A DNA stretch of 64,000 bases. It comes from Chiloscyllium plagiosum (Eukaryota). The DNA lies in NCBI RefSeq assembly GCF_004010195.1, contig NC_057718.1:103215276-103279275 (forward strand), given 5' to 3'. The position numbers and the translations under genes are program-made. Below, piece by piece: positions 1,281-62,281 of the stretch. The notes under the pieces were generated by a model. The model was given only the letters and a program-made list of their open reading frames with translations, was not told the origin of the DNA and ran no database searches. Every line of letters starts with the position of its first letter. Position 1 is the first letter of the stretch.

Positions 1281-1977
1281 ATAGAGTCATAGAGTCATCC
1301 AGCATGGAAACAAGACCCTTCGGCCCAACTAGTTCATGCCAACCATGTTCCCAAACTAAACTAGTCCCACCTGCCTGCTCCTGGCCCATCTCCCTTCCTA
1401 TTCATGTACTTATCCAAATGTCTTTTAAATGTTGTAACTGTACCCATATTCACCACTTCCTCAGGAAGGTCATTCCACACACAATCCACTCTATGTGTAA
1501 AACTGTTGTCCCTCACGTCCTTTTTAAATCTTTCTCCTCTCACCTTAAAAATATACCTGCTAGTTTTGAACTCTCAAAGCCTGGTGAAAAGACCCTTACT
1601 GGTCACTTTATCTATGTCCCTCATGATTTCATAAACCATTCCACCTCCTACATTCCATGGGAAAAAGACCCAGCCTCACTTTATAACTCAAACTCTCTAT
1701 TCCTGGCCATGATTCGGAGATGCTGGTGTTGGACTGGGGTGTACAAAGTTAAAAATCACACAACACCAGGTTATAGTCCCACAGTTTTAATTGAAAGCTA
1801 GTGTGCTTCCAATTAAACCTGTTGGACTTTAACCTGGTGTTGTGTGATTTGTAACTCTATTCCTGGCAACATCCTGGTAAATCTTTTCTGAATCCTCTCC
1901 AATTTAATAATATCCTTCCTGTAACAGGGTGACCAGAACTCCAGAAGAGGCCTCACCAACATCCTGTACAACCTCAC
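1281..1977 (-). mobile_element. CR1/HER1 LINE 3' fragment
   Basis: ORFs RGERFK..FTHRV..WNDLPEEVV..TFKRHLDKYM and LYRMLVRPLLE..LERIQKRFTRMLPG; (gactctat)n tail. Confidence 0.9.
1708..1854. mobile_element. Family A palindromic PLE-derived element inserted in a CR1 fragment
   Basis: Inverted arms (aatcacacaacaccaggtt / aacctggtgttgtgtgatt); TSD ctctattcctggc at 1695-1707 and 1855-1867. Confidence 0.85.
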
Positions 1978-2203
1978 AAAAAAAAGCTGGTGACGGCAAT
2001 TCAATGGCCCCAATCCATGGAGAGACGGTCCTTTGGCTTCACAGGAGGGACTGCCGTTCAGCACACCAACGGCAAAGTCTCTTCACCGCTGGTTAAAGAA
2101 AACAGTTGCTGGTGAGGGAAAACAAAATGACTTTCTCCAAGCTTTTGATGTTTTTACTGAGCAGAAAGACAAACCTAGAGATGTAGTCTGTATTAATCCA
2201 CTT

Positions 2204-2420
2204 AGAGTCATTGTCATTTAGATGTACAGCACGGAAACAGACCCTTCGGTCCAACCCGTCTATGCCGACCAGATAATCCAACCCAATCTAGTCCCACCTG
2301 CCAGCACCTGGCCCATACCCCTCCAAACCCTTCCTATTCATATACCCATCCAAATGCCTTTTAAATGTTGCAATTGTACCAGCCTTCAACACATCCTCTC
2401 GCAGCTCATTCCATACACAC
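2204..2420 (-). mobile_element. CR1/HER1 3' fragment
   Basis: 3' UTR acagacccttcggtccaac and ORF2 end similarity. Confidence 0.85.
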
Positions 2421-3903
2421 TTGCGCTGTACGTATACTGCCAGACCTCCTGAGTTTTCCCAGCAATTTCTGTTTTGGTTGCACAGGATTTCCGATTAAAT
2501 AGTTCCAAATGCCTCCTGCTCTCGGTTGTCATATCCCACCCAAATCTGCCTAATTGTGTCATCACACGGTAATTTACATAGAACATAGAACAGTACAGCA
2601 CAGGCCCTTCGGCCTTCAAGTTTATTTCCAAGTTTATTTCTTCAGCAATACCCTAGCAACAGCATTTGCAGTCTATCAAACACAGTAAAGTACCCAGAAA
2701 CTGGCAAAAATACTATCAGGTGGCTCCAACAATTACCGCCACCACAACAATCTGCATTGATAGAGCATCCTTAACCCTGTGGCGCTTCACTGGAGAGTTG
2801 TCAAAATAAAACTTGGCACTAAGTCATTGAATGAGATAAGTAGAGCAAATGATCAGACCCTTGATCAAAGAGGTGGATTTGCAGAAGCATCATAAGATGA
2901 TAAAATATTAACATTGGACTCTGAGGAGAGAGGAAGGTGTAACCTTCTCCACAGAGCTGCATTACAGGGATCAATGATGTGTAATAGTGTGTAAATAAAA
3001 GAGTTTGTTGGAACTGCTGAGAATCAGACAAAAGGGAAAATAGTTGCGGAGGTACAACAAAGTCCGAGTGGAGTCCCTCAGTGAGGGACAAACGCCACTC
3101 TCTTCAATCTTCGTGTCTACCTGGCAGCTTATCCCAGAAGAAGCAGTCAACTGAGGGCTGTATGAGTAAAGAACGATCAAACCATGAAAAACTGCACATG
3201 GTTACATTTCAACATTCAACATGAAGCAGCCTTCAGCTGTTGTATGGTATGGCTAATCATTATTGGCAAATGGGACTGGATTAATGTGGAATATCTAGTC
3301 GGCATGGATGTGTTGGTCTGTTTCACTGTTGTACCAAGCAAGTTCACAGCAACTTGAATATTGGATCTTATTTGAATTCTGATCTTTAACAGTAGGACTT
3401 ATAAAATAAAGCTTTATTAAAAATGGTTTAAGATCTTAATTGTATAAAAATTACAATTGTTCATTCCTGTTAATGCTTATGAAGTAAAACTAAGTTTTGC
3501 ATACTTCAAAGCAATATGTTAGTCATGTTGCACAATGTCTGTCGTCTGAGAGGCTATGTTCAAGTTGCTAGTTCTTACCAAAACCAGAGGTAGACAATAG
3601 GATCTTGACCTTCTGTTCTGTATTTGGAAATGAAAGAAACTCCTAACTAATGACTTCACATCAGAAATATTAAACTAGAATTCCAAAAGAGAAAAATGCT
3701 TTCCAGTTGTGAAACGCTTTGCTTCGTTTTTAAAGTCTATCTTCTGTCTTACTAATTTCTAGAAAGCCACTCACTACATAATCCAAACCCAGCTGAGTCC
3801 TAAGCTCAGACCCCCTGCCCCGGCATCACTGTCACTGTGTAAGCTGCCCCTTTGAGATTCCGTCAGCTTATTTGGAGTTTCTCTCTGCAGTGATGGGCAT
3901 GGA

Positions 3904-4420
3904 CCAGGTCTCCACTACTGGGCATTGCTGTCTCCAGGTCTCCACTACTGGGCATTGCTGTCTGTCTCCAGGTCTCCACTACTGGGCATTACTGTCTCCA
4001 GGTCTCCACTACTGGGCATTGCTGTCTCCAGGTCTCCACTACTGGGCATTGCTGTCTGCAGGTCTCCAGTACTGGGCATTGCTGTCTCCAGGTCTCCACT
4101 ACTGGGCATTGCTGTCTCCAGGTCTCCACTACTAGGCATTGCTGTCTCCAGGTCTCCACTACTGGGCATTGCTGTCTCCAGGTCTCCACTACTGGGCATT
4201 GCTGTCTCCAGGTCTCACTACTGGGCATTGCTGTCTCCAGGTCTCCACTACTGGGCATTGCTGTCTCCAGGTCTCACTACTAGGCATTGCTGTCTCCAGG
4301 TCTCCACTACTGGGCATTGCTGTCTGTCTCCAGGTCTCCACTACTGGGCATTGCTGTCTCCAGGTCTCCAGTACTGGGCATTGCTGTCTCCAAGTCTCCA
4401 CTACTGGGCATTGCTGTCTC
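3904..4420. repeat. 30-bp minisatellite, about 17 copies
   Basis: Unit ccaggtctccactactgggcattgctgtct with occasional +4 (gtct) and -1 variants. Confidence 0.95.
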
Positions 4421-4925
4421 CTGTCACTGTGTAGCAAGTCTGATGATGCTTCACTTCATAAGGCCCAATCTACAAATGATACTGGAAACTCAACATCACA
4501 TTGCATTCCATTATTCGTTTCAACTTATGCTTAAAGTTCTATCTAGAATCTGAATTATAGAAAGGCATCAGCCTTAGCTCTATTTATCCGGATTCTTTTC
4601 ATCCTGTGCAGAAAGCAGGGCTCCATCCATGTAGATATATTACCCTCCAACTTTACCTTTTGTTGGATCAGCATTCATTGCCCAACCCATGAGAAGGTGA
4701 ATGGTTGCAGTCCATATGCTGTAGGTACAGCAATGATGACATTAAGGAGGCAATTTCTGGGCTTTACCCCAGCCTCTTGTATAAAACAGATTAGGCATGG
4801 CACTTGATTGAATCTCTTTGAAGACCCAAGTTACTGTTTGGTGGAATGGGTAAATAGGTGGCAGTTGGAGTACACTGGGCAAAGTCAGAAGTCACATGAC
4901 ACTAAGTTACGGTCCAATAGACTTA

Positions 4926-5956: not shown

Positions 5957-6148
5957 TTCCCAGTGGGAGTTGGGGAACACTTCAGCGGTCCGGGACATTC
6001 GACCTTGGACCTTCAGGTGACTATCCTCCAAGGCGGACTTCGGGACAGGCAGCAGTGAAAAGTGGCTGAGCAGAGGCTGATAGCTAAGTTCGGTGCCCAG
6101 AGGGAGGGCCTCAACTGAGACCTTGGGTTCATGTCACATTACAGGAGA
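5957..6148 (+). pseudogene. GIY-YIG endonuclease C-terminal fragment (Penelope-like), two in-frame stops
   Basis: Manual translation, in frame with ORF-track 6131 MSHYR; motifs PVGxxEHF, H..DL.V.IL, EQRLI.KF, GLN.D.GF. Confidence 0.8.
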
Positions 6149-6990
6149 CCACCATTGCACTACACACACACGCACTCCTATATATACACGGACACACATA
6201 TACACAGGCACACACACAGACACTCACACACACCCTTACAGACACACACACTCCCACACTCACACAGGCATCCTCTCAGAGACTTAGACCACTCTACACT
6301 CATACACACACATATACACTCTCTCTCACAGACACACACAACCCCCACCCCAAACACGCACACACTCCCACACTCACAAATGCACCCCCTCACAGACTTA
6401 AGACACTCTATACTTACACACATATACACTCTCTCTCACACTCACAATCCCCAACCTAGACAGACAGACACACACACACAGACAAAGACCCACATGCACA
6501 CATATAAATTGTGCGGTGAATTTGTACTTGCAGAGTTACATTGTACTTTGCTCAAAAACTGCATGAATTTATGTAAAGTTCTGAGCTCCAAAACTGCATG
6601 AATTCATGTAAAACTCCCTTATCTCACTTTTTAGATTAGAATCAATCTAAACATCATAGCATAGACAGAGAGCACAGGGGGCTAACACCTTCAACATATT
6701 GTCTAGCTAACATCCATTGTTACAGCTAACCTGAGAATGCAACTTTAATGCAACTTTGTGATTTACACATGAAAGAAGTGAAACTGTCATGGTGTTCAAA
6801 CAAATGAAAGACTCAACAATCAAGGTATTTTTCAATGTATAATTTCAGTTACATCACTGTAAATTTTTGCTATAAATTCTGTGCCTTAGTATTGTATCCG
6901 CCACTATGACCTGGTGAAGGAGCAGCGCTCCGAAAGCTAGTGTGCTTCCAATTAAACCTGTTGGACTGGTGTTGTGTGATTTTTAACTTT
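5957..6990 (+). mobile_element. Penelope-like retroelement 3' remnant: GIY-YIG C-terminus, CA-rich 3' UTR, hammerhead-bearing terminal repeat (family A)
   Basis: Frame from 5957 reads FPVGVGEHFSGPGHSTLDLQVTILQGGLRDRQQ*KVAEQRLIAKFGAQREGLN*DLGFMSHYR. It resembles the PLE GIY-YIG end (HF...H, E, GLN), and both stops are TGA, consistent with CGA decay. It is followed by a CA-rich UTR and by CTGGTGAAGGAGCAGCGCTCCGAAAGCTA at 6911-6939. Confidence 0.85.
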
Positions 6991-7153
6991 ATCCTCCCTA
7001 TGCTAGGCAATGCTGAGGGACACTCAATGCTCCTACTCATCCATCCATACCCCTAATCCATCTATTACCCACCTCTGGAGAGAAAATGCTGAGGGACTCT
7101 TGTAGTGTATTGATAGTGTCCCTACATCTGAGCTAGGCAGGCCTGAGTTCAAG

Positions 7154-7280
7154 GAGTAAGTGAGGACTGCAGATGCCGGAGATCAGAGCTGAAAATGTGT
7201 TGCTGGAAAAGCGCAGCAGGCCAGGCAGCATCCAAGGAGCAGGAGAATTGACGTTTCGAGCATGAGCCCTTCCTCAGGAA
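7154..7280 (-). mobile_element. Family B single-arm element
   Basis: TSD tgagttcaag at 7144-7153 and 7281-7290; interrupts a tRNA-like SINE. Confidence 0.85.
7250..7277 (-). ncRNA. Minimal hammerhead motif, family B
   Basis: Reverse complement: CTGAGGA A GGGC TCAT GCTC GAAA CGTC. Confidence 0.75.
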
Positions 7281-8903
7281 TGAGTTCAAGACCCACCTAC
7301 TCTACTGTCATAATATCTTTGAGCAGTTTAATTCGACAATACCTGTAAGACATAAAAATTTTCACTTAGTATCATAAACTCTAATGAAATTGTATGGTTC
7401 CAATTTTTGTTTTGGCCATAACACGCAAAACAATCCTTCACTTTCTATTTCATATGAAGCTTTTATAACATCAGTTGTCAAATTTTGTATGAAATGAAAA
7501 GAAATTTGGCCACAGAAATAACTGATGGATAAATGAACTCAAAGCAGATTTTTAATTTCTAAAATATACCTTAATCATAATATTTTTTTCCTGTGAAAAC
7601 ACAAATCTTCCACAGCCTCAGTCCGGAGATAGGCACTTCTGTGACACAAAGGTTTTTGAAAAAGTTTGGGTTTGTAATTCTCCAGGTGTGGAGGTGTTAA
7701 GGAGTGAGCAGAGGTGATCTGGTCTTGTTCCTTCTTGTATAATAAGTGAGATATTTTCCTAATCTACCTGTTACAGGGATGCTATGACCCACCTCTGAAG
7801 CAAGTGAGACTTAAACTTAGCTCTCCCAGCTCAGAGATAGGGACAATACAGCTGCACTGATAAAGCACACAAGGAGTGACTCTACCCTGGTGGAACATGT
7901 TCATGTGGAAGGGAGCAGGTTTAACCTGTTTAACAGTAGAATCCAAATCATCTTAAGCAGTCACACGTCTGGTGTGTGTGTGTGTGTGTGTGTGTGTGTT
8001 GGGGGGGCATAGAAACTGTGAGCTTTACTAGTGTGTGATTATCACATGTGTCATTAGCACACTTTGGTTGGTTTATCTTGCTTAAATGTTCATGCATCAT
8101 TGAGCACCCAAATTCCAGACTGGCTCCCAGGCCTGTTAGGAGTTACTGATTAACAATAATTTCAGTAGCTGCTGCTTGTATTTTCCTTCCTGGTGCATGA
8201 GAGTTAGTTTTATGATTTTTTAATTGAAGTGTAAATACTGGAGCGCCATAAAATGCTTTGATTTATAGGTGACAGGTATGAGAGCTTGCATCGGGGAAAG
8301 CAAGTGCGCTGGGTTCTGCAGTTGCTGGCTTTTCGACACTAATGGTGTTCTCCATCAACTTCAGTTTCTCCAGCCCTGGGATTTATCCTGCACAGTTTAG
8401 AGTTCACTGCTGTGCCTTTCCTTATAATGTACAGTCATTACTGGTTTAAATATTGTATGTACCTCATCTTCTGACTCCTCGGTCCATGAGCCACACCTCT
8501 CTGGGGGGATATTTACAAATGCAACGCAAAGCCACGATCAATGGAGCTGCCATACAAGCTGCCTGCAAGGCAGAATTCCCACAACCCGCTCAAAAGCCTG
8601 CAAACCAACTCCTATTGCACTTTGCTTATCATCCATCAAACTGTCACTTTAATTCAGATGCTATGAGTTGTTTTAATAATATACATTTCACACACACACA
8701 AAAGAATTGGTAACAGTGAGGATGGAGAGTTGCCTTATTATGACCCTCCAATTTCAAACTCTTTATCAGTGAAACCAGCTTCTTAAGGCTGGCCATCAGG
8801 CTATACTATTGTGAACAGCTGGATCAACATAATTTGTATTAGATATTTTCCCAATTAACCTGCTCAGTGATGTTATGACACACCTCTAGAGCAGATGGGT
8901 CTT

Positions 8904-11278: not shown

Positions 11279-14158
11279 ACCTACTGCTGTGAAACACTTT
11301 GCAATGTCTGGAGATTATCAATGTATGGGTTGCTAGTTAATGAGTTCAGAGTCAGCTTCACTAAAACATGCTGAGTGGTTAGGAGGGAAGGCAGTCCAAC
11401 TCCAATGTAAACTTTAACAGAACAACTTCACTAATTTGCAGAGCAGTGTCAAATGGTTTACTATTTTCACTGTTTTTAATTCAAATTCAGGCATTCTTTC
11501 TGCTTTTAGGATTGTTCCAGAATCTGAGTTCATACCACAGACTTTCTTTCTCTAGAAACAGAAAAACAATTTGAACTTCATGAAACCTACCTCCTGTTTG
11601 TAGACTGTTTGAATGCAACTACTTTCTATCCTTTGAAAGCATCTGACTAGCCAGTAACATTACAAGTCTTATCCATTTCAGTGGCTTTGCCAAGGGACTT
11701 GCCCTAATGCTGCAACTGATACAATCTAACTCACTGCCTTATCAAACATTCCTACAGTAAGTTGGGAAGGGATTTGCAGTAACTCTGGAAAAATTTCGCA
11801 CCTGGAACATAATTTACTATATGTTAATATAATTAACATTTAAGTTGTATTAACTCACAACCAGATCTGTTTGGAATGTTTCGTTGTGTGGTGCCAGTGA
11901 ACAAATTAGTGATTATTCCCAGTTTCGTGTGATATAGCAAGACTGCTAAGTGAAAGGATATTAAATTGGGCTTAAATCAGCATCAAGTGCCTGTTCATAT
12001 CAAGATCGACAGCATGAACAACCCGTGTACAGACAGGACAATAATTTGCTCTTCTAAGTTAAGATTAGGCTTGTAGTCACTGTTGGAAGCAGACTTAGTG
12101 CTAACTTTCAAAAGGGAATTGGGTACATTTGTGAACATCTACCATTTTCTGGTGAAAGGGCAGAGGGGAATGGTGCAGAAACAATTGGTGCAAACGCTGT
12201 TTGGAGGGTCGGTGCAGACTTGATGGGCCAAATGGGAAATGTGATCATTTCAAATACAGTTCCTGAAAAAACTGAAGCAACAGGTCACAAAGTACACAGG
12301 TTATTTCCACAGGCACATGCATATAGACACATGCAGACATATACACTGTGCTGCCCTTTATGGAGTCATTCAATGGTTAACACTTCTGCCTCACAGCTCC
12401 TGGGACCACCCTTGGATGACTGTCTGTGTGGAGTTTGCACATTCTCCCTGTGTGGGCGTGGGTTTCCCCAGATGCTCCGGTTTCCTCCCGTAGTCCATAG
12501 ATTTGCAGGTTAGGGTGGATTGGCCATGAGAAATGGTCCCATAGTATCCAGAGATGTGCAGACTAAGTGGGTTCGCCATGGGAAATAAGGAGATAGGCTA
12601 AGTCTGGGTGGGACTTGTCATGGCCTCTTTCTGCACCATCGGGATTTTGTGACATATACACACAGAGACGCACAACACATGCCAGACTTTCAGTACTGAA
12701 TGAACAGAGGTTTTGTCCCATTAAATATTGGCAAGACTTAATACATTGTCTTCAGCCCCCCATCACAAACTCTGACCCCAAGCCACTGATCTCCATTGTT
12801 CTGTTTGAGGCTGTTTAAAGTCATGGCCATTATATTTAACCCAGAGATGAGCTTCAGACTGCACAGCCACCTCTGAAACAGTTGTGACAGTGAGGTATTC
12901 CCTAGGCACTGTACTGCTAGCGAGCATTAACCTCGATTTTTCCCAGAACAGTAAAACAGGCGAATGGCACATCATGGTCTGACACGGCTTGTTACTTCAC
13001 AATGGGATCCGATAGATTCATTTCCAAGGGTTGGTCTTTTTCCTGCTGTTTTCCTCAGAGGAGGGGAGGGGTTTATGGTCCAAGCCCTCAAGTGGGTCTC
13101 AAACTAACACTTTTCTGACTCTGTCTGGAGACTATAACACTGAGATGTGGCTTTACTGACGAGCTGGAATAGAACAAAGTATCATGTCACAGACAGCAAA
13201 GGGCCAGGCTCTGAGTGCAGTGCGAAAAGAGCCAGAGAACACTGGATACTTCCTAAAGTGTCACGGTGCGTGGCGAGGGAAATATTGTGATACTCCTTCT
13301 AAAGTTGCGGGAGCCACTCTTAACGATGATAGGCTCCAGAATCACACCAGCAAAGATTGACCCCTGGTCCATGTCGTACATTGAGTTGCTTGATCTCAGG
13401 CTTAAGGAGGGAGGATTGAGGGGCTTCACACCGGGGGGGTGTCACCTGATAATTTCTCTTACAAGTTTAGTCAGTAAAGTCTCCATAATTTGTAGCTTCC
13501 TCTCAATTGTGCTATTGGCCCACAGTCTGTGTTCACGAAACCTAATATACTTAGCAGCAATGTCCACTTAATTGTTATGCATGTACAAAAATATTGATAC
13601 AGAGCACTGAAGAAACAATATAGTGGTTTAGTACACAGTGAAGATGTCATGACCCACTGTGAGACATGACTTATGTTTCCACATGTTAAGGAGACTGGAT
13701 AGCCAACGAGTGATGAAATAAGCCTTGAGTTATGATCAGGGTCCTGAACACCAATATAAATCAGTGCACATGTCTGCCTGTGGAGAGCTCTAGCTCCATC
13801 ATATGACAAATATTATTTTGAAAGGGATTTGGGTAATTTGGGAGGTAATTATAAATATTTTACATTAATCCCTTCTCCCCGCCATCATTTAAACCTGCCA
13901 ATGAGAGACTAGAGTGCTGCAAAGCAGTGGATTCCCTGAGAGCCAAGGTCTTTTCCCCGGGATGGGGGAATCCAAAACTATAACTTTAGGGTGAGAGGGG
14001 AAAAATTTAAAAGGGACCTAAGGGTCAACTCCTCCATGCAGGGAGTGAAGCGTGTGTGGAATGAGCTGCAAGGGGAAGTGGTGGAGGCTGGTACAATTAC
14101 AACATTTAAAAGGCATCTGGATGGGTATATGAATAGGAAGGGTTTAGAGGGATATGGG

Positions 14159-14391
14159 TCAAGATTAGTGTGGTGCTGAAAAAGCACAGCAGGTCAGGCA
14201 ACATCTGAGGAGCAGGAAAATCGACATTTCGGGCTAAAGCTCTTCATCAGAACTTCCTCATTCCTGATGAAGGGCTTTTGCCCGAAATGTCGATTTTCCT
14301 GCTCCTCGGATGCTGCCTGACCTGCTGTGCTGTTTCAGCACCACACTAATCTTAACACTAATCTCCTGCATCTGCAGTACCCACCTCCTCC
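14159..14391. mobile_element. Family B palindromic element inserted in a CR1 3' end
   Basis: About 95-bp inverted arms plus a one-sided extension; 16-bp TSD tttagagggatatggg at 14143-14158 and 14392-14407. Confidence 0.9.
14223..14291. ncRNA. Back-to-back pair of family B hammerhead motifs (minus 14223-14250, plus 14264-14291)
   Basis: GACATTTC GGGC TAAA GCTC TTCATCAG ... CTGATGA A GGGC TTTT GCCC GAAA TGTC. Confidence 0.7.
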
Positions 14392-14851
14392 TTTAGAGGG
14401 ATATGGGCCAAGTGCTGGCAAATGGCACTAGATTAATTTAGGATATCTGGTCGGCACGGACAAGTTGGACAGAAGGGTCTGTTTCCATGCTGTACAGCTG
14501 TATGACTATGAACATCTGACTCACAAGCATTCATACTTACAAACATGCTCCCATACAGGGGTGTAATTTTAAAGATCTGATATACAACATCTTCTATACA
14601 TATGAACAGCTATCTTATATTGTACTTGATTCGTGAACAGAGTCCAGAAGAGACCCATTCACATTTCAGGGACTGCCTTTAATTTAAGCAGCCTCACAAT
14701 TATCCCCACTCTGAGCAGTCCTTTAAGAAAAAGTGTAGTCAGTGCTGAAGCATAAAAACAACACCCAGACGTCTGGCCTTGATGGCTATATTATAATCAA
14801 GTATCACTTAGCCGTACAAAACTTGAGAAGTATGGAGGAAGCAGACACAGA

Positions 14852-15990: not shown

Positions 15991-16321
15991 CCTAATTTGT
16001 GTATGAAAATGAGGTTAATTTGAATACAGACTTTTCTCTGCAACATGAAGGGTGCTTTGGAAACATTGGAGGCTGAGGGGTGGCTTTATAGAGGTTTATA
16101 AAATCACGAGGGGCATGGATAGGATAAATATGCAAGGTTTTTTCCTCAGGGTAGCGGATTCCAAAACTAGGGTTAAGATGAGAGGGGAAAGATTTAAAAG
16201 GGTCGTAAGGGGCAACTTTTTACAGAGGGTTTGTTGAACGGTTAGGAAGAATCTATCAATTAATTATGCTAACTACATTCTATCTGCATACATAAACTGT
16301 GTTAGGTATAAATGGACTTGC

Positions 16322-16432
16322 GAGGTAAAAACAATGACTGCAGATGCTGGAAACCAGATTCTGGATTAGTGGTGCTGGAGAAGCTCTTTGGATGCTGCCT
16401 GAACTGCTGTGCTCTTCCAGCACCACGAATCC
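16322..16432. mobile_element. Family B internally deleted palindromic element
   Basis: 14-bp TSD ataaatggacttgc at 16308-16321 and 16433-16446. Confidence 0.8.
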
Positions 16433-16585
16433 ATAAATGGACTTGCACTGTCTTTGAAAACAATGGGTTGAGTTTAAGTGTGTGAATATTGCCTCAGTGG
16501 ACATGGGCTGGAGTGAGTCATGCTGACTGGGTTTGGCCTGGTTTCAGTTGAGGACACTGATCTGAGACCACAGAAACAATAACAA

Positions 16586-17060: not shown

Positions 17061-17184
17061 ACCTAGCAACTTTAATATAGTGAGCTATCCCAGGGCATAC
17101 ACAGGAATAATCATCAGACAGTGTTTGTAATTTACCTGCATAAGGAGAAGTCAAGACAAGTGATCAAAAACATGGTTAGAGATG

Positions 17185-17338
17185 ATTTGGAGATGCCGGT
17201 GTTGAACTGTGGTGGACAAAGTTAAAATCACACAACACCAGGTTATAGTCCGACAGGTTTATTTGGAAGTACTATGTTTCAGAGCGCTGCTCCTTCATCA
17301 GGTGGTTGTACTCCCGTTGGACTATAACCTGGTGTTGT
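17185..17338. mobile_element. Family A palindromic PLE-derived element
   Basis: Same consensus; TSD gttagagatg at 17175-17184 and 17339-17348. Confidence 0.85.
17273..17301 (-). ncRNA. Minimal hammerhead motif, family A, stem III variant
   Basis: Reverse complement: CTGATGA A GGAGC AGC GCTCT GAAA CATA. Confidence 0.6.
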
Positions 17339-17448
17339 GTTAGAGATGGTAGAGTAAGGGCAAATTGCTGAGTCAGCAATTCAGAGGCACAGGCTAATGA
17401 ACTGGAGGTATATCAACTCATGGTGAGATTTAAATTCACTTGATAAAT

Positions 17449-20050: not shown

Positions 20051-20224
20051 TGTAAATTTTTGCTATAAATTCTGTGCCTTGCAATTGTGCCCTCCACAAC
20101 CACCTGATGAAGGAGCGACGCTCTGAAAGCTAGTGCTTCCAATTAAACCTGTTGGACTATAACCTAGTGTTGTGTGGTTTTTAACTTTGTACACCCCAGT
20201 CCAACACCGGCATCTCCAAATCAT
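20051..20224 (+). mobile_element. Family A PLE 3' end (UTR, hammerhead and tail)
   Basis: tgtaaatttttgctataaattctgtgcctt matches the PLE remnant at about 6858-6888, followed by the hammerhead and the tail ...ccagtccaacaccggcatctccaaatca. Confidence 0.85.
20104..20132 (+). ncRNA. Minimal hammerhead motif, family A
   Basis: cac CTGATGA A GGAGC GAC GCTCT GAAA GCTA gtg; flanking cac/gtg can form stem I. Confidence 0.75.
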
Positions 20225-41293: not shown

Positions 41294-41510
41294 TAGATCG
41301 GAGTGGTGCTGCAAAAGCACAGCACGTCAGGCAGCAGGAAAGTCGACATTTCGGGCAAAAGCCCTTCATCAGGAGTAGATATTCCTGATGAAGGGCTTCT
41401 GCCTGAAACATCCATTTACCTGCTCCTCAGATGGTGCCTGACCTGCTGTACGTTTCCAGCACCACTCTAATCTAAACTCTGGTTTCCAGCATCTGCAGTC
41501 CTCACTTTTG
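41294..41510. mobile_element. Family B palindromic element nested in a solo LTR
   Basis: 15-bp TSD ccctttcagagagct at 41279-41293 and 41511-41525. Confidence 0.9.
41345..41412. ncRNA. Back-to-back pair of family B hammerhead motifs
   Basis: Minus 41345-41372 and plus 41385-41412; both retain CTGATGA and GAAA, and stem III shows CpG-type decay. Confidence 0.65.
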
Positions 41511-41892
41511 CCCTTTCAGAGAGCTGTTCTGCTAGCAGACTGTTTGTTGGTGGCTTGGCAGTTCCATATCTAACTGTTCAAAATATCTGGTTTTATTTCC
41601 CAAAATATCAGATCATTTCATTGGTTTGATGTCATCAAAACAGTAAAGTCAAATTCGATTGGAATTTGGTATCTGGGGCCTAATTTAAACTGATTGGCCA
41701 AATTTGAATTTGTTTTTGTTCCATGGCAATGCAACTCCAGCTATTTGTTTCAACCAAGTGTTACATGTTTACCTTGTTCAGGACTCTCTGTGCTTTCAGT
41801 CAGTCCTTGCTAGCTTTCCAACTCTCTTTAAGGTACAGTACACCTCTACAACTTCATAACAATTTTGCTGTCCCTTTTGTCTCCTTCTCTAG

Positions 41893-44650: not shown

Positions 44651-44779
44651 ATTCCTGAAGAAGGGCTTATGCCCGAAACGTCGACTCTCCTGTTCCTTGG
44701 ATGCTGCCTGACCTGCTTCGCTTTTCCAGCAACACATTTTCAGCTCTGATCTCCAGCATCTGATGCCCTCACTTTCTCT
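44651..44779 (+). mobile_element. Family B single-arm element
   Basis: Hammerhead followed by consensus ctcctgttccttggatgctgcctgacctgc...ccagcatctg; TSD-like tcactctaagg / tcactcctagg. Confidence 0.85.
44655..44682 (+). ncRNA. Minimal type I hammerhead ribozyme motif, family B, core intact
   Basis: CTGAAGA A GGGC TTAT GCCC GAAA CGTC; palindromic ACGT stem III, GUC triplet. Confidence 0.8.
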
Positions 44780-50579: not shown

Positions 50580-52660
50580 AGTGTGAGAGCGTGAATATGT
50601 GACAGGGTGGATGAGTGAATGAGTATACATTAATGTGTGTGTGTGTTTATGAATTTATACTAGCATGTGTTTGATTGTATGCAAATGTATATTAGTGCAT
50701 GTGTAATCAATGTGTGCACATAGATGTGATTTGATTTATTATTGTCACGTGTATCGAGACACAGTGAAAAGTATGGTTTTGCGTGCTTTCCAGACAAATC
50801 ACACCTGACATAAGTACATCAGGGAAATAAAATACAATGCAGAATATAACATCATAACTACAGAGAAGGTGCAGAGAAAGCTCAACTCTAATATACGAGA
50901 TGTTCGTTCATAAGTCTGATAACAGCGGGGATAAACAACAGTGTATTATTTGCGTGTGTGAATTGTGAATGTGTGTTTGAGAGTGAGTATATGTTTGTGT
51001 ATTTGTGTGTATATCTGGCAGAGTGTGTGCATGAGAGAGTATAGGTGAAATTGAGGATTGCAGATGCTGGTGATCAGAGTCAGGAGTGTGGTGCTGGAAA
51101 AATCACAGCAGGTCAGGCAGCATCCGAGGAGCAGGAGAATCGATATTTCGGGCATAAGCCCTTCATCATGACCTTCCTTGGATGCTGCCTGACCTGCTGT
51201 GTTTTTCCAACACCATACTTTCATATGAGAGAATATATATTGATGCATATTTGTGTGTATGTGCCTGATTGTGTGTGAAAGTATGTATTAATGCACTTTT
51301 GTGCATGTGTGTTTGGGGGGGGGGTAGTGGGAGTGTTGGTCCATGTGTGTATATCTGATTCTGTGAGAGACAGTGTATATATTAATATGTTTCTCTGTGT
51401 GTATGTATGTGTGTGTATTAAAGCGTGCACGTGCCAAGTGTATGAATTTGACTGTGTCTGAATAAGTGCTTGTGTATTAATTTGTATGGGACAGTGCAAA
51501 TGAGTGTGTGAATTTGTGAGAGACAGTATGAATGAGTGCATGAATTTGTGAGGGAGTGTGTGATTAAGTGAGCGAGTGTAAGTAAGCGGGTCGAACAAAC
51601 AATCTATTGAAACTGTGGACCAGGTGGCCATTTTGATCTAACCTACACTGTATGGTCTGTTAATCAATGCAGTCCAGATAAGTGTGTATTTTTTGTGAAT
51701 GAGTAGTGTGTTTGTGCGTAAATGAGTGTGTACTTTTATGAATTAGTGAGTGTGTACACCTGTGAATGAGTGTGTTTTTGTGTGATTGAATGTGTATGTG
51801 TGTGAATAAGTGTGTATTTTTGTGATAGTGGGTCCTTATACATGTTGGTTTCTGCTGGCCTGCCTTGGAGGGATTCACTGTCACCAACCTATCTTGCTGG
51901 ATTTAGTCTAAGGCACTGGCACCATGTGGGGAAGGATGCACAGGCAACATTCCAGGCAGGAGATAGACTCAATCCTGATGAATAGAATTGCATATAACTT
52001 GGTATGAGTTATATTACACTTAATATACATGACAGTCTCTTCTGAGACAGTTAAGATTGCAATGACGTTACGTCTACAGAAATATTCTCACTCAACATTA
52101 GTAACAAGCACAGAGCTCTCGGGACACTCTGGTTTGCTTCTCCTGGAGCTATCCTCTACGTCCTGATGGACAGAGTTGACCTTATGAGGTCAGTTAACTT
52201 CTTGTGGCTGTAACTGCCTTGTGCAACCTGAATGTATGTGAGTGTGTAAGTGTGTGTGAGTATGTAAGTGTGTACGCTTGAATGAGCTAATGCATAAGTG
52301 TACCTGAGTATGTGTTGATCTGTGTCTCAATGTGACTTTGTGTCTGATTGTGTGACTGAGTGAGTGTGTGTGTGTTTGTGGGTGAGTGAGTGCAAGTTTG
52401 TGTATGTGTGAGTGAGTGTGACTGCGAGTTTGTGTGTACGTTTGTATGAGAGTGTGAGTTTGGGAGTGAATGAGTGAGTATGCATTTGTGAGAGAGTGAG
52501 TGAGTGTGTGCATGTGAGTTTTTGTATGAGTATGTGAGTGAGTGAGTGTGTACGTGTGAGTTTGTGTGTGTGGTTGTGAATATGTGTTTGTGTATGAGAA
52601 TGAGTGTGTGCATGTATGAGTGAGTGAGTCTGTGCATTTGAGTTTGCGAATGTAAGTGAT
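50580..52660. repeat. Extended degenerate TG-rich low-complexity region
   Basis: (TG)n/(TGAG)n-like tracts interrupted by repeats; source of the His/Thr-rich spurious ORFs. Confidence 0.85.
51044..51224. mobile_element. Family B palindromic element
   Basis: TSD-like atgagagagtata (51031-51043) / atgagagaatata (51225-51237). Confidence 0.8.
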
Positions 52661-52674
52661 TGTGAACATCCGAG

Positions 52675-52956
52675 TTAAAAATCACACACCACCAGGTTAT
52701 AGTCCAACAGGTTTAATTGGAAGCACTAGCTTTCAGAGCGCTCCACCGTGCCGCCCACTACCACCGTGCCGCCCACTGCCACCGTGCCCGATTGTGAACA
52801 TCCGAGTTAAAAATCACACACCACCAGGTTATAGTCCAACAGGTTTAATTGGAAGCACTAGCTTTCAGAGCGCTGCTCCTTCATCAGGTGGTTGTATAGC
52901 CTAGTGTTGTGTGATTTTCAACTTTGTACACCCCAGTCCAACACCAGCATCTCCAA
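52675..52956. mobile_element. Family A element with a locally duplicated left part
   Basis: Consensus match; TSD-like attgtgaacatccgagt / attgtgaatatctgagt. Confidence 0.8.
52859..52887 (-). ncRNA. Minimal hammerhead motif, family A
   Basis: Reverse complement: cac CTGATGA A GGAGC AGC GCTCT GAAA GCTA gtg. Confidence 0.75.
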
Positions 52957-54293
52957 ATTGTGAATATCTGAGTGTGAGTGCACTGTCCTAGTAACTGGGC
53001 AGAGTGTCATTAGGGAACAAAGGAGAGGCTTGGGTGTTTTCAAATTAATCGTGAGCATCTGGTCACTAGAAGTGCAGATTTTTCTGAGTGCTAGACACTG
53101 CTTTGTTGAACACATTGCCACTTACTGCTGACGTTCTGGAGATCACAGATCCATTCCCCTCATTGGGGAAGTGGTAAAGGCTGTTCTTTCTGCTGGTTGA
53201 CAGAGAACCACATGAAATTCCTGATTGCGAATCGTCACTTTCCACGTGTTATGGCTCTGGATATGATATCGACATCATAAATCATTCTCATCATTGCATT
53301 GGCTGTGCACATTGGCTGATCTGATGCTTCAATGGTGACTAGAAACATGGACAGCTGCTTGGACGAAAGATGCAGCTGGTGAGAATAACAACTGCTGGGG
53401 AACGACCCTGTGCCTTTGCCAGGTGACAGGACATACAAATAGCCACTGTTTATTTATCTTCTCGGAAGCTGCATCCCCTACCTTCTCCCACCCTCCCCCA
53501 CTTGCTGCTTTGGGATCATTCTGTACCAGGTACTCTCCAGCAGAGCCTCCCCAGTCTCCTTTAGCTGCCGTGCACATGGTCAGTCACAAGGAGGTGCCAT
53601 GAGGTTTGTGGGATATGAAAGGGGATTGACAGAGTAGACATGGGGCAATACAGACCCAGGGGTCATAGTTCCCAGGTGAGGGGTAGCAGATTTTATAACA
53701 CAGATGAGGAGGAATTACTTCCCTCAAAGGATTGTGAATCTGTGGAATTCACTGCCTCAACATGGGGAATTAGGCCATTCAACCGATTGAGTCCGCTTCA
53801 CCATTCGATCATGGCTGATATATTTCTCAACCTCCATTCTCCTGCCTTCTCCCCAGAACATGTCAGCCCCTTACAATCAAGAACCTATCTATCTCTGTCT
53901 TAAAGACACTCAATGATGTTTTATGGGATGAGAATGTTGCTGACTGAACCAACATTTATTGCCCAGAGGGCAGTTAAGAGTTAACCACCTCACTTTGTGT
54001 CTGGAGTCACATGTAGGCCAGGTAAGGGTGGCAGTTTTGTTCCCTGAAGGACATTAGTGAACTAGATGGGTTTTTCCTAACAATCAACACTGTCATCATT
54101 ACACTGGTAAAGATTTTACTAAGTTCAAATTATACCTGCCATGGCAGGATTTGAACCCAGGTTCCCAGAGTCAAGAGTCTAGTGATAACACTATTAGGTC
54201 ATTGTCTCCCATACCTTTGGGCACCACAGCCTTCTGTCGCAATGAGTTTCATGGATTGACCAACCTCTGGCTGAAGAAATTGCTCCTCATCTC

Positions 54294-54492
54294 AGAAAAG
54301 CACAGCAGGTCAAGCAGCATCCGAGGATCAGGAGAGTCGACGTTTCGGGCAAAAGCCCTTTATCTGGAAACTTATGAAGGGCTTATGCACGAAACGTCAA
54401 TTCTCCTGCTCCTCGGATGCTGCCTGACCTGCTGCGCTTTTCCAGCAACACACTCTCGACTCTGATCTCCAGCATCTGCAGTCCTCACTCTT
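54294..54492. mobile_element. Family B palindromic element
   Basis: Inverted arms gaaaagcacagcaggtc / gacctgctgcgcttttc with two decayed hammerhead motifs. Confidence 0.8.
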
Positions 54493-54670
54493 TCTTCATC
54501 TCGGTAAATTTAAATAGTGTTGGGGAGAAGGTTTTCAACGAAGCCATTCTGGGGAATGGACAGGGAAGTGGAGTCGAGGCCAAGATGGGATTAGCCACAA
54601 TCGTACTGAATGACAGAGCATAATTGATGGGCTGAATGGCCTCTTCCTGTTGCTGGCTCACGTGTTTTAA

Positions 54671-54860
54671 GATTTGGAGGTGCCGGTGTTGGACTGAGGT
54701 GGACAATGTTAAAAATCACACAACATCAGGCTATATTCCAATAGATTTATTTGGAAGCACTAGCTTTCAGAACCACCTGATGAAGGAGCAGCGCTCCGAA
54801 AGTTAGTGCTTCCAAATAAACCTGTTGGACTATAACCTAGTGTTGTGTGATGTTTAACTG
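54671..54860. mobile_element. Family A palindromic element
   Basis: Inverted arms around the hammerhead at 54777. Confidence 0.8.
54777..54805 (+). ncRNA. Minimal hammerhead motif, family A
   Basis: cac CTGATGA A GGAGC AGC GCTCC GAAA GTTA gtg. Confidence 0.7.
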
Positions 54861-54950
54861 TGTCTTTATAAGATATGGCCCTGACGTGTCCAGCTTTCCT
54901 GTCCTCTCTTGCCTCATTGTGGGGAGTTCACTTGTTACTGCTCAACACCA

Positions 54951-55321
54951 GGTGAAAGTGAGTACTGCAGATGCTGGAGATCAGAGTCAAGATTGTAGTG
55001 GTGCTGGAAAAGCACAGCAGGTCAGGCAGCATCCGAGGAGCAGGAAAAACGACATTTCAGGCAAAAGTTAAAAATCACGCAACACCAGGTTATAGTCCAA
55101 CAGGTTTATTTGGAAGCACTAGCTTTCGGAGCGCTGCTCCTTCATCAGATGATTGTGGCGAATGTGTGATTTTTAACTTTGTACACCCCAGTCCAACACC
55201 AGCATCTCCAAATCATTTCAGACCCTTCATTAGGAGTCTGCCCGAATTTTGCCAGAAATGTCCATTCTCCTGCTCCTCAGATGCTGCCTGACCTGTTGTG
55301 CTTTTCCAGCACCACTCTAAT
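54951..55321. mobile_element. Family B palindromic element containing a nested family A element (about 55064-55213)
   Basis: Outer TSD-like cttgttactgctcaacacca / cttgctgctgctcagcatca; inner TSD catttcag at 55053-55060 and 55214-55221. Confidence 0.85.
55120..55148 (-). ncRNA. Minimal type I hammerhead ribozyme motif, family A, core intact
   Basis: Reverse complement: CTGATGA A GGAGC AGC GCTCC GAAA GCTA; perfect 5-bp stem II, palindromic AGCT stem III, CUA cleavage triplet. Confidence 0.8.
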
Positions 55322-55657
55322 CTTGCTGCTGCTCAGCATCACCCTCACAAAAGGCAGACTGCTGGCCTGTAACGCATCACTGGGACAACAACAACTTCCA
55401 TTTATATATCACCCGCCTCATGGGAACATTTTTAAGCTCGATCTGACATTGAGCTGCGTGGCAGGGCACCAGGAGGGACCACCAAAGATTTGCAGAAAGG
55501 CAGCAGGTTTAAAGAGAGTCTGGGAAGGAGGGAGGTGTGAAGGTGAGGGGGAGTGTGTGTAGCCAGAGGGGTTTTAGGGAGAGGCGGAGATCCCCGAATT
55601 TGCATCCCAGCTGAAGGGATGGCCACCACTGGCCCGAGCAGATGAAGCTGGGGATTT

Positions 55658-55878
55658 GAGCTGAAAAATGTGTTGCTGGAAAAGCGCAGCAGGTCAGGCA
55701 GCATCTAAGGAGCAGGAGAATTGACGTTTCAGGCATAAGCTCTTCATCAGGAATAAAGAAGGGCTTATGCCCGAAACGTCGATTCTCCTGCTCCTTGGAT
55801 GCTGCCTGACCTGCTGCGCTTTTCCAGCAACACATTTTTCAGCTGTGATCTCCAGCATCTGCGGTCCTCACTTTCTCA
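55658..55878. mobile_element. Family B palindromic element
   Basis: TSD aagctggg(g)atttg on both sides; minus-strand hammerhead at 55723-55750. Confidence 0.85.
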
Positions 55879-57457
55879 AAGCTGGGGATTTGGCCTGGCC
55901 AGTTGAGACGGCTGCAGAGGCTAGCGAGGGTGGTGGCACTGATTGCAGAGATAGGAGAGGAGAGGCCAGGCCAGGGAGGGATTTAAAACCAAGGCCGAGA
56001 ATTTTAATTACAGACAGAAACTCATGTCTTGCCGTCAATTTTAATAGCTTGATTAACCAGCAGCAATTTCTGAAAATGTCACACAATTTCTGCATCATTG
56101 GTGCCTGTACAAAAACTGTAGAAGAGGACTTCAGTTTATAATGGGTTATGACAATTAAATTGTTGTGTCACTTTAAGACTAGCATTAATCTTCACTTGTC
56201 ATTCCTGCTTAATGCAGGTTGTAAAAGGCTCTGTGTTTTAATGAATTGGGATGCATGAGGTCTTTTGGCATTGAATAACTGACAATGTGCTGGTCACCCT
56301 GAACTCATCATAAAATCTCTGAGAGCAGTGGAAATATGATCATCTGACCAGGGAGGACATCCATTTCCTAATGACAACACTGACCAGTGACAGTCAAGTA
56401 ATTATCTTCCACGCCATCAGTCAACGCTTCCATCCTTTCAAGTATTGCTGTTCTTAATTAATCGTGTTTAGCAAAACCACACCTTTTGCTCTCAATAGCC
56501 GTCAAGCTCCTCTGAGATTCAGAGCCAGCAAAAAAAATTTGTGGCCAAAATCTGAATCCTGACGGAGCATTACTGCTGACTGACCTCCCATCTCGAGCTA
56601 AGAATCTATCAGAGTATGGCTGACAGTCTTGAGCTGGAACATGCTAATTCGCCCCATTGTTTCAGGGTGAATGGCTTCACAGTATTTATCAACAATGGAT
56701 TTTGCATAAACCTCCTCATTTAGGGGGATTTCATTTGAACTTTTTTGTCTCATCTAGCCTGCCCCTCCCCCTCCCCCCACCACACACATAAGGAAATAGC
56801 CAGGGAGAATTATTTTGTTTTTAAATTCCGTGTGTTACAAGGGATTACCAATAGGATTAAGTGTGTCAGCCTGGCTATTTTATATTCATTGCTGCTAAAT
56901 GCGCAAATGGTGGACATGTTATTCCTAGAGATCAACTATAGGACCGTCTTTGTCATTACAGGAACACTGCCCATTATAATTTCTTTAAAACAAACTCACA
57001 CATATTTTAAAGGTTATTGTGTGGAGAGCCCGTATTGCAACAGAGTCAGAAACAGAATCCACATTTCTTGCCTTCTACACTGACACAGTGAATAAAATAT
57101 TCTGCAATGTTTTGTCTGGCACACCTCAGGAACCTCAGTTTCTCACAGACCTTGAAAGAATATGACAGCAAAACGTCAAGAACAATGTAGGCACATTGAA
57201 AGGAGAAAGGATTCCTGAAGGTTTTGGATTACGGCATTTGGATTCCTTCCCAATAACCGTTACCAGCCTCTGTATTGCTAGTTTTCAATGGCCTACCATG
57301 AGCTTCCACACTTTCAAATTTCTGGGCCCCACACTCTGGTATTCTCTCCCCAGCGCTCCCAATCCCTCCAGCACTCTCTCCTTTCAGATGCTTCATCATA
57401 GCTATCTTTCTTGGCCTAAAATCTCTTTGCATGACTCTGTCAAACTTTACTCGATAA

Positions 57458-60500: not shown

Positions 60501-60751
60501 AGAGCAGTGAAGATTTATGTTGGGCCAAATGGCCTGTTTCTGTGCTGTGCTGTGCAATCCTTTTTATTTCACAAGTAAGGGCAGAATTTTATTGAGCCAC
60601 TTTGAGGAGTTGATAGTGGATTTTGCTTTTAGACTATTGCAATTCTCACGATGCAATGATATAATTAAGATGAAGACTCTGGTTCATGACTCTCAATAAA
60701 ACAATGTTCTGTTGCTCAACTATCATGAGATACTATTTTGTATTAATGATG

Positions 60752-61128
60752 TAGAGTCATAGAGTCATAGAGGCGTACAGCACGGAAACAGACCCTTCCA
60801 TCCAAATCCTCCATGCCAACCAGATATGCTAACCCTAATCTCGTCCATTTACCAGCACTTGGCCCATATCACTCTAAACCTTTCCTATTCATATACCCAT
60901 CCAAATGCCTTTTAAATTTTGTAATTGTACCAGCCTCCACCAATTCCTCTGATAGCTCATTCCTCTGCGTGAAAAAATTGTTGCTTGGGTCCCTTTTAAA
61001 TCTTTCCCCTCTCACCCGAAACTTATGCCCTCTAGTTCTGGACTCCCCCATCCTAGAGAAAAGACCTTGTCTATTTACCCTATCCATGCCCCTCATGATT
61101 TTATAAACCTCTATTAGGTCACCCCTAA
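60752..61128 (-). mobile_element. CR1/HER1 3' fragment
   Basis: LRGDLIEVYKIMRGMDRV..TRGHKFRVRGERFKRD. Confidence 0.9.
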
Positions 61129-61270
61129 GTGTCTGATGCTGATGGAGTCCTGATGGAGTCCATAATCTTATTAAAAACAGCAAAGTTTGTAATGATCTAT
61201 GTCTTATTGTAAAATTGCTATAGTAGAATGAAAATACAATTTCACTCAAAAAAACCTTTCTCAACATTAT

Positions 61271-61436
61271 GATTTGGAGACGCCATTATTGGACTGGGGT
61301 GTACAAAGTTTAAAATCACACAACATGAGGTTAAAGTCCAACAGGTTTATTTGGAAGCAGGAAGGAGCAGTGGTTCGAAAGCTAGTGCTTCCAAATAAAC
61401 CTGTTGGACTATAACCTGGTGTTTTGTGATTTTTAA
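61271..61436. mobile_element. Family A palindromic element
   Basis: Inverted arms; 15-bp TSD ctttctcaacattat at 61256-61270 and 61437-61451. Confidence 0.85.
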
Positions 61437-62281
61437 CTTTCTCAACATTATCTGAAATTACTGCTTAACTGAGCTGCTCTCATTTAAGTCAATTTATCAA
61501 TAAATCATTACCAACATTTAGCAACAAAGAAATGAACAACAAGACTTTCTTCACGAACCTGAAAAGGAAATGTGCAACTAAAGTGAGCATTTGTTCTGTC
61601 AAAGGTAAGAGAGTGGAAATGCTACAGAAAGATAAGGAAATGGCACATGTATCAAGACAGGTTTTGTGGCTGGAATTCTCGTTCCAAGGTCAGAGATAAA
61701 TGCAATCTGGGAGGAAGTGCGCCAAAACGTCAGATTTTTGGTTTCAAGGGTGAAGGGGGGTGGGGTCGTAGCTGGGTGGAGGCAGTCTTAAGGTTTGGAA
61801 TCTTGCCTTGGTGCCCTGGCATTCTTTCAAGACAGGGAAAAGAAGACAATGAAAACCAACATTGGCCAACATCTCCTCACCCCTCACACTCTCTCCATGC
61901 CCCCTTCACTCTGACTCATGCCATCTTATGACTTAAAACCACCACTCACACTCCGTATCTTTCCAGCCATCTACCATGTTAATTACACCCCCTACACTAA
62001 CTTCTTGCCAATTCACAGCAACACATGTCCAAACCAACAAACTTTACTTTAACACCTTCCATGACAACTTCATGTATTTATGAATTCACTACTTCAAAAA
62101 AGAAATACTCTCATTGATAAAAAAAATCTATTCACTGCAGTGAACTTCCTGTAATACCTTGCAAAAATAAAATTGGATTCATTTTTCCACTTCAAAGAGA
62201 CTAAAATCATGTCAATCAAGCTATGAATTGAAAGGCACCCCACTGTAACAATGGAAAGTTATGAAATTATCAAAGAGTCAA

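What the first reader, a model, noticed from the sequence alone, without database searches (positions are those of the whole stretch)
1695..61451. Hairpin hammerhead units are discrete insertions with 10-20 bp target-site duplications
Seen: exact TSDs flank at least nine copies: 1708 (13 bp), 7154 (10), 14159 (16), 16322 (14), 17185 (10), 25716 (14), 36335 (10), 41294 (15) and 61271 (15). Imperfect TSDs flank 51044, 52675, 54951 and 55658. The palindromic copies have one long arm with a fixed tail, one shorter inverted arm, and a centre that differs between copies. Inference: each was integrated in one event, with the inverted arm generated during reverse transcription (fold-back or template switch near the ribozyme). 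This fits PLE-style inverted termini better than MITE transposition. Alternatively they are a self-propagating non-autonomous, retrozyme-like class.
Basis: partly seen in the sequence, partly recalled or inferred. Interest (0 to 1): 0.75.

Follow-up and report, generated by a model that had tools for sequence, protein, structure and literature searches.

The report
Two-ended Penelope insertion stubs in shark
The hairpin-shaped repeats are real insertions with 9-18-base target duplications, made of two head-to-head end pieces of protein-coding Penelope-type jumping genes in a layout already described for that class; their nearly invariable pairing of one long and one short arm likely records both cut DNA ends priming reverse transcription at two fixed sites on the element's RNA.

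Summary
Observation confirmed: all nine exact TSDs have the stated places and lengths; 55645 is a tenth. The units are 5'-truncated ends of two Penelope-like (RT + GIY-YIG) families, A and B; A's parent has the Neptune-type linker motif. In 1.58 Mb of this genome, 66 of 133 palindromes keep an exact 9-18-bp TSD (null 2 of 288). Of these, 64 pair a long arm (ending about +124 from the hammerhead core) with a short arm (about +87). Centres are distinct in 114 of 118, so each copy likely formed anew: not a MITE or self-propagating retrozyme. The short arm reaches further 5' than the long arm in 58 of 118, and TSD-flanked single arms use either end point (12 long, 9 short). This disfavours simple fold-back and favours priming from both nicked strands, as a lizard PLE's in vitro behaviour allows. 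Breakpoints do not track the predicted cleavage site (185 of 236 arms read through). The inverted-pLTR-plus-tail anatomy is published, and this scan noted it before on other DNA (9 unreviewed notes). Only the coupled-priming reading is new, and it is untested.

The parts
1695..1867 (.). Family B palindrome, 13-bp exact TSD; long antisense arm left, short sense arm right; inserted in a high-copy host repeat
   Evidence: 30 paralogs span the reconstructed empty site without a gap
5969..6998 (+). Longer 5'-truncated family B copy: GIY-YIG C-terminal fragment (5969-6142), CA-rich 3' UTR, TATA-like box, hammerhead motif; ends near the proximal (short-arm) site; no convincing TSD
7144..7290 (-). Family A single long arm (-7 to +125), 10-bp exact TSD overlapping the 5' end by 4 nt
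14143..14407 (.). Family A (A2) palindrome, 16-bp exact TSD, inserted in a high-copy host repeat
   Evidence: 61 of 65 spanning paralogs gapless at the site; 314-402 contigs in three of four runs read from 14158 straight into the sequence behind the right TSD
16308..16446 (.). Family A (A3) short palindrome lacking the hammerhead core, 14-bp exact TSD; possibly absent in a related species
17175..17348 (.). Family B palindrome, 10-bp exact TSD
20051..20224 (+). Family B single long arm reaching 53 nt upstream of the core, with a TATA-like box about 40 nt upstream of the hammerhead core; no TSD found
21962..22092 (.). Older family B palindrome, long plus short arm, 8-bp exact repeat only
25702..25940 (.). 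Family A (A1) palindrome, 14-bp exact TSD; short arm -3 to about +87, long arm +5 to +126, 3-nt microhomology joint
36325..36551 (.). Family B palindrome, 10-bp exact TSD; short arm carries the hammerhead motif that the long arm lacks
37242..37416 (.). Older family B palindrome, no TSD left
41279..41525 (.). Family A (A2) palindrome, 15-bp exact TSD, both arms reach the -5 to -2 zone
44651..44778 (+). Family A single arm from the preferred 5' end (-4) to the tail (+123); minimal hammerhead motif intact at 44655-44682, predicted cut after 44682
   Evidence: cut site inferred from the consensus in PMC4209133
51031..51237 (.). Family A palindrome, 13-bp TSD with 1 mismatch
52659..52973 (.). Family B palindrome (52805-52958) with a 17-bp TSD (2 mismatches); left TSD and part of the short arm were duplicated later around a short GC-rich minisatellite
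54295..54498 (.). Family A palindrome, no TSD above chance
54671..54864 (.). Family B palindrome, no TSD above chance
54938..55341 (.). Family A (A2) palindrome, 13-bp TSD with 2 mismatches, with a family B palindrome (55064-55216) nested in its centre; intact family B hammerhead motif at 55120-55148 on the minus strand
55645..55892 (.). Family A (A1) palindrome, exact 14-bp TSD that itself resembles the antisense tail
61256..61451 (.). Family B palindrome, 15-bp exact TSD; short arm reaches +5, long arm only +30

Best explanation
These units are 5'-truncated, TSD-flanked insertions of the 3' ends of two protein-coding Penelope-like retrotransposon families, and each hairpin likely formed anew when both nicked target strands primed reverse transcription. 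Shown: the two end points, the long-plus-short pairing, the TSDs, the coding parents and the unique centres. Inferred: (1) the GIY-YIG domain nicks both strands about 9-18 bp apart, leaving two 3' overhangs; (2) one overhang primes at the distal site (about +124 from hammerhead C3, the tail end) and the other at a proximal site about 36 nt upstream (about +87), often with 2-6 nt of microhomology; (3) both cDNAs copy the same source RNA toward its 5' end, mostly through an uncleaved hammerhead, and often stop at -8 to -1, a likely transcription start; (4) the two cDNA ends are joined by microhomology or end-joining with a few added bases; (5) if one cDNA is lost, a single arm of either type remains. 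Copies this short would be dead ends.
For: Parents: a family A end lies in sense 2.0-3.4 kb downstream of a PLE-type RT N-terminus in 20 of 20 loci picked for long frames. GIY-YIG fragments are followed by A ends or B ends. Relatives carry RVT_1 and GIY-YIG in one protein. L058 is a 3-kb coding copy with the same short-arm/long-arm/15-bp-TSD layout, and five 0.7-1.5-kb pairs show it too. Pairing: 118 of 133 palindromes and 64 of 66 with an exact TSD are long+short (p 3e-17 against 0.5). Long ends fall at +116 to +129 in 62 of 64, short ends at +80 to +93 in 46 of 64, median tail 36 nt. Only 5 pairs have tails pointing inward. Short arm reaches further 5' in 58 of 118, long in 48, equal in 12; among TSD 12 bp or more, 23/17/5 of 45. 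Single arms with exact TSD of 10 bp or more: 12 long, 9 short, of 266 single arms. Microhomology of 2 nt or more: 19 of 28 flush long ends and 12 of 26 flush short ends, null about 1.6 (40 elements, ends with added bases left out). Own arms share 78 of 230 non-CpG variants (34%) versus 9% when shuffled within subfamily. In vitro, the anole PLE protein cuts and extends both strands, starts RT at two sites 111-118 nt into the ORF that begins at the hammerhead, is predicted dimeric and uses uncleaved RNA (PMC11167929).
Against: No biochemical or RNA data for these families. Asymmetric loss at a palindrome centre after insertion could also make the short arm reach further 5'. Short ends are more scattered than long ends (18 of 64 outside +80 to +93). 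Shared variants also fit fold-back or later gene conversion. No convincing chimera with arms from two subfamilies was found (74 of 80 concordant; the one inspected candidate differs only by a 2-nt indel), so two separate templates are not shown. The cap-G test for a transcription start was inconclusive (G/A 2.1 at -5 versus 1.9 at the control position). The two in vitro start positions were measured in another clade, and coupling within one event was not tested there.
Confidence: 0.68

Rival explanations
1. Same PLE origin, but the inverted arm arises by fold-back (self-priming) of one cDNA or antisense template. The second arm stops or is cut about 36 nt short of the tail, and later centre deletions make the arms unequal inside.
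For: Arms share variants and joints often use the hammerhead's own self-complementary bases (28 of 118 with microhomology of 2 nt or more). Self-priming is the reading in PMC3846280 and endonuclease resolution is offered for the tail in PMC8557442. Centre revision of palindromes is recalled, not from a call.
Against: Needs secondary deletion in about half of all copies, young ones included (23 of 45). Does not readily give TSD-flanked single arms that end at the proximal site (9 of 21). Perfect-centred palindromes persist unrevised (10 overlapping pairs among the 100 matches listed).
Confidence: 0.22
2. The hairpin is a self-propagating non-autonomous element (retrozyme-like or SINE-like) copied as a unit by the PLE enzyme.
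For: Very high copy number (84 palindromes per Mb). A preferred 5' end at -4 would allow a short transcript. Animal retrozymes are described as PLE derivatives (bioRxiv 10.64898/2026.07.22.740005). A short single-arm transcript as template is not excluded.
Against: 114 distinct centres of 118; the repeated ones are microhomology joints. Lengths grade continuously up to 3-kb coding copies with the same ends. No tandem arrays: 8 neighbour pairs among 266 single arms.
Confidence: 0.06
3. The units are MITEs moved by a DNA transposase.
For: Inverted ends, small size and TSDs.
Against: TSD length varies from 9 to 18 bp. Outer ends are symmetric in only 5 of 133. Ends are continuous with RT and GIY-YIG coding sequence.
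Confidence: 0.02

Closest known systems
Insertion units of endonuclease-bearing PLEs with inverted pLTR, one-sided tail and TSD (PMC3846280 passages; PMC8557442 passages)
   Same: Head-to-head inverted 5'-truncated copy, a 30-40-bp tail on one end only, TSD of about 8-10 bp, TATA/Inr-like motifs in the pLTR
   Different: Here most units are only the last 50-130 nt of each arm, TSDs are longer (median 14), and the long+short pairing is quantified (64 of 66). The papers ascribe the inversion to self-priming and the tail to endonuclease resolution.
Poseidon of Anolis carolinensis (PAc) in vitro (PMC11167929, main text)
   Same: Hammerhead followed by a tail; RT starts about 111-118 nt after the hammerhead ATG; two start sites bounding the tail; both target strands cut and extended; uncleaved RNA is used
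   Different: Penelope/Poseidon clade, whereas family A has the Neptune-type linker motif. In PAc the ORF begins at the hammerhead ATG; here that frame closes early in both families. The parts read do not link the two starts to the inverted arm.
Minimal hammerheads of metazoan PLEs (PMC4209133 results and discussion)
   Same: Core boxes, extra base before helix II, palindromic helix III remnant, mostly dispersed truncated copies, pairs 100-700 bp apart on opposite strands
   Different: Helix I is weak in family A (about 3 of 4 pairs); no activity tested here.
Non-LTR retrozymes of animals (bioRxiv 10.64898/2026.07.22.740005, parts 1-2 of 5)
   Same: Type I hammerhead, no protein, PLE origin
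   Different: Retrozymes are same-strand tandem units; these are head-to-head and unique at each locus.
L1 twin priming (recalled, no call)
   Same: Both target strands prime cDNA, giving an inverted 5' part inside one TSD
   Different: In L1 the two arms are non-overlapping parts of the RNA and the second start is variable; here the arms overlap and both starts are fixed.

Membership tests
Endonuclease-bearing Penelope-like elements | PLE-type RT and C-terminal GIY-YIG in the parent | tested here: met
   RT N-terminus upstream of A ends in 20 of 20 loci; GIY-YIG fragments upstream of A and B ends; relatives with RVT_1 plus PF01541. Direct Pfam scan of four short fragments gave only a sub-threshold RVT_1 hit. 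An intact full ORF could not be read because the core reads N in the long loci.
Endonuclease-bearing Penelope-like elements | pLTR end carrying a minimal hammerhead motif | tested here: met
Endonuclease-bearing Penelope-like elements | Inverted 5'-truncated copy with a 30-40-bp tail at one end | tested here: met
   64 of 66 long+short, median tail 36 nt
Endonuclease-bearing Penelope-like elements | Variable-length TSD with single-copy empty site | tested here: met
   9-18 bp; 9 of 43 elements have paralogs spanning the empty site without a gap, 3 more span with gaps, 31 have no paralog in the sample
Neptune/Nematis clade | CX2-5CxxC motif in the RT-EN linker | tested here: met
   C-x4-C-x2-C read directly upstream of GIY-YIG in copies followed by A ends about 410-420 nt later (the automatic flag also matches a motif inside the endonuclease, so the reading rests on the printed sequences). 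Not seen directly for family B.
Neptune/Nematis clade | RT phylogeny with named references | not tested
   No named Neptune, Nematis or Poseidon references were fetched
Minimal type I hammerhead ribozyme | Core boxes, G10.1-C11.1, extra base, palindromic 15.2/16.2, NUH | tested here: met
   Intact at 44655-44682 (+) and 55120-55148 (-) against the description in PMC4209133; helix II recovered by alignment folding in both families; many copies are decayed or truncated
Minimal type I hammerhead ribozyme | Self-cleavage | not testable with these tools
   185 of 236 arms read through the predicted site
Non-LTR retrozyme | Same-strand tandem units each with a hammerhead | tested here: not met
   8 neighbour pairs among 266 single arms; palindromes are head-to-head
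Non-LTR retrozyme | Abundant linear or circular RNAs | not tested
   No RNA run was laid
MITE | Symmetric terminal inverted repeats | tested here: not met
   5 of 133 symmetric
MITE | Fixed-length TSD | tested here: not met
   9-18 bp

The most novel reading that the evidence does not exclude
PLE integration is a coupled two-ended reaction: a dimeric enzyme cuts both strands about 14 bp apart and assigns one 3' overhang to the distal start and the other to the proximal start of one source RNA, so the inverted pLTR, the one-sided tail and the TSD are one footprint. Internal initiation next to the RNA's 5' end would then explain why most products are 130-nt stubs that stop at the transcription start, and the roughly 10^5 shark stubs would be a natural record of the reaction's geometry.
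Probability: 0.5. Interest if true: 0.55.

Novelty: new member of a known kind. Interest (0 to 1): 0.33.

Why it matters
As repeats these are ordinary PLE debris, but they are abundant (roughly 300,000 if the 84 per Mb of eight non-random blocks holds genome-wide) and easily mistaken for MITEs, miRNA hairpins or retrozymes. How PLEs make an inverted pLTR with a one-sided tail is an open question with competing published readings. The strict long+short pairing gives a sharp prediction for an existing in vitro assay: within one target molecule the two strands should start at different sites. Two-strand priming by one enzyme would also matter for retrotransposon-based gene insertion.

Tried and rejected
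Rfam: no hammerhead family hit, only sub-threshold hairpin matches. Cap-G test: G 4426, A 2064, T 837, templated C 19738 before the -4 start, but the control position gave G 1181, A 613, so the G excess is not shown to be specific; inconclusive. Breakpoints at the cleavage site: 12 at the cut versus 13 in the two flanking bins, no support. Target motif: none beyond mild AT richness (64% versus 59%) and G depletion next to the tail. Single-strand folding of four arms: z from 0.5 to -1.3, not significant; alignment folding pairs the tail back to about +45 to +55 in both families but without compensatory changes, so no structure is claimed. Two-subfamily chimeras: none convincing. Orthologous empty sites: only 13500-18000 was laid; contigs break at repeats and the joint table was cut, so only 16322 gives a hint. 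Expression: no RNA holder listed and none laid. Sequence look-up in earlier findings: nothing. Literature searches for Penelope with twin priming, dimer TPRT or shark MITE-like repeats listed no paper stating coupled two-ended priming; the library lacks most subscription papers and Repbase/Dfam notes, and no supplements were read.
Full report
Observation. All nine exact TSDs exist at the stated places and lengths, and the copy at 55645-55892 has an exact 14-bp TSD too. Random pairs of the same spacing reach 10 bp in 2.2% of draws. The three remaining imperfect TSDs hold with 1-2 mismatches, 54951 being the weakest. The window holds two sequence families, A (several subfamilies) and B, each with a minimal hammerhead motif followed by about 95 nt and a fixed end. 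Positions below count from the first base of the hammerhead core (C3 = 0); the predicted cut lies before +28 (A) or +29 (B).

What they are. Both families are 3' ends of coding elements. Upstream of B lie a CA-rich UTR and a GIY-YIG C-terminus, also inside the window at 5969-6998. An A end lies in sense 2.0-3.4 kb downstream of a PLE-type RT N-terminus in 20 of 20 loci chosen for long frames (those frames include unreadable bases, so no intact ORF is shown). An RT fragment finds shark and ray proteins first (Chiloscyllium punctatum 82-87%), and more distant relatives carry RVT_1 and GIY-YIG together; the genome is therefore likely a bamboo shark or close relative. Copies followed by A ends have C-x4-C-x2-C before the GIY-YIG motif, the linker that marks Neptune/Nematis in PMC8557442 (passages). 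No tree was built. Locus L058 is a 3-kb coding copy with a 15-bp TSD, a short antisense arm and a long sense arm, and five 0.7-1.5-kb pairs show the same. The hairpins are the short end of a continuum.

Statistics. I read eight blocks of this genome, 1.58 Mb without N, not chosen at random. They hold 532 arms: 133 head-to-head palindromes (92 A, 41 B) and 266 single arms; only 5 adjacent pairs point tails inward. Exact TSDs of 9 bp or more flank 66 of 133 (range 9-18, median 14), against 2 of 288 random pairs. Long+short pairing is seen in 118 of 133 (12 short+short, 3 long+long) and 64 of 66 with a TSD. Long ends fall at +116 to +129 in 62 of 64; short ends at +80 to +93 in 46 of 64; the median difference is 36 nt. 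Centres are distinct in 114 of 118. One exact 25-nt family A motif occurs 27,065 times genome-wide.

Empty sites. For 43 elements of the first five blocks with a TSD, 9 have paralogs that span the reconstructed empty site without a gap, including window copies 1708 and 14159; 3 span with gaps; 31 have no paralog in the sample. Public contigs read from 14158 directly into the sequence behind the right TSD. That suggests an empty orthologous site, but the join to the left flank was not displayed.

Mechanism. In each palindrome both arms are antisense to the RNA when read inward from the adjoining TSD, as expected if each 3' overhang primed a first-strand cDNA. A fold-back product has the same outline, so I tested what separates them. 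Fold-back copies the long cDNA, so the short arm should be contained in it; yet the short arm reaches further 5' in 58 of 118 (47 by 8 nt or more), the long arm in 48, and 12 are equal; among the best-preserved copies the split is 23/17/5. TSD-flanked single arms end at either site (12 long, 9 short). Both outer junctions show excess microhomology with the target (19 of 28 and 12 of 26 flush ends, null about 1.6). The arms of one element share 34% of non-CpG variants versus 9% in shuffles and differ by 7.2% versus 10.5% (80 elements), so they come from one source, or were homogenised later. The anole PLE protein cuts and extends both strands, starts at two sites that bound the tail, is predicted dimeric and uses uncleaved RNA (PMC11167929, parts 1-2 of 4). 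I therefore favour coupled priming from both ends (0.68). The main rival is fold-back with later asymmetric loss at the centre (0.22), which my data cannot exclude.

The ribozyme and the 5' end. The motif meets the minimal-hammerhead description of PMC4209133 (parts 1-2 of 4); activity is untested. Of 236 arms, 185 read through the predicted cut and inner ends are not enriched there. They cluster just upstream of the core: 63 of 168 A arms end at -8 to -1 and only 5 go further; 26 of 68 B arms end at -11 to -1 and 4 go further. The A stop sits in an initiator-like motif and B has a TATA-like box about 30 nt upstream of its stop (consensus motifs recalled), which suggests a transcription start. 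The cap-G test was inconclusive.

Comparison and novelty. An inverted truncated pLTR, a 30-40-bp tail on one side and a TSD are the typical PLE layout (PMC3846280 passages; PMC8557442 passages), and opposite-strand hammerhead pairs were noted in PMC4209133. Retrozymes are same-strand tandems (bioRxiv 10.64898/2026.07.22.740005, parts 1-2 of 5), which these are not. Nine earlier unreviewed notes of this scan, one from this genome, reach the same filing, and two suggest two fixed starts or a transcription-start stop; my reading was recorded before that look-up, and those notes are not independent support. My searches listed no paper that states coupled two-ended priming, but they cover open-licence text only and no supplements were read. 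Verdict: a real feature, a new member of a known kind, with modest extra interest from a testable mechanism.

Noticed in passing
window 26762-27486: 316-bp arms 99% complementary around a 93-bp spacer; unique DNA apart from an old A-related fragment. A recent inverted duplication or an assembly fold-back artefact.
   Followed up: partly
window 4856-5195: Old family B palindrome whose arms are split by about 185 bp with short inverted ends flanked by TA, resembling a Tc1/mariner-type MITE (resemblance recalled).
   Followed up: no
window 54938-55341: Family B palindrome nested in the centre of a family A palindrome; the right copy of its target duplication appears to have lost about 6 bp.
   Followed up: partly
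window 36876-37098: Older, A-related palindromic family with a degenerate hammerhead region, not analysed.
   Followed up: no
L023 1846-5760: Large family B copy: antisense tail, UTR and endonuclease fragment joined to a sense RT region, whose other end stops at the hammerhead core instead of the usual +87 site, overlapping an 11-bp duplication.
   Followed up: partly
G000, listing: 10 overlapping plus/minus pairs among 100 listed matches: perfect-centred palindromes where both arms stop at -4 and join through a 2-nt overlap.
   Followed up: no
window 55635-55658: The target beside the short arm resembles the antisense tail over about 20 nt, hinting that target-RNA pairing can guide priming.
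   Followed up: no
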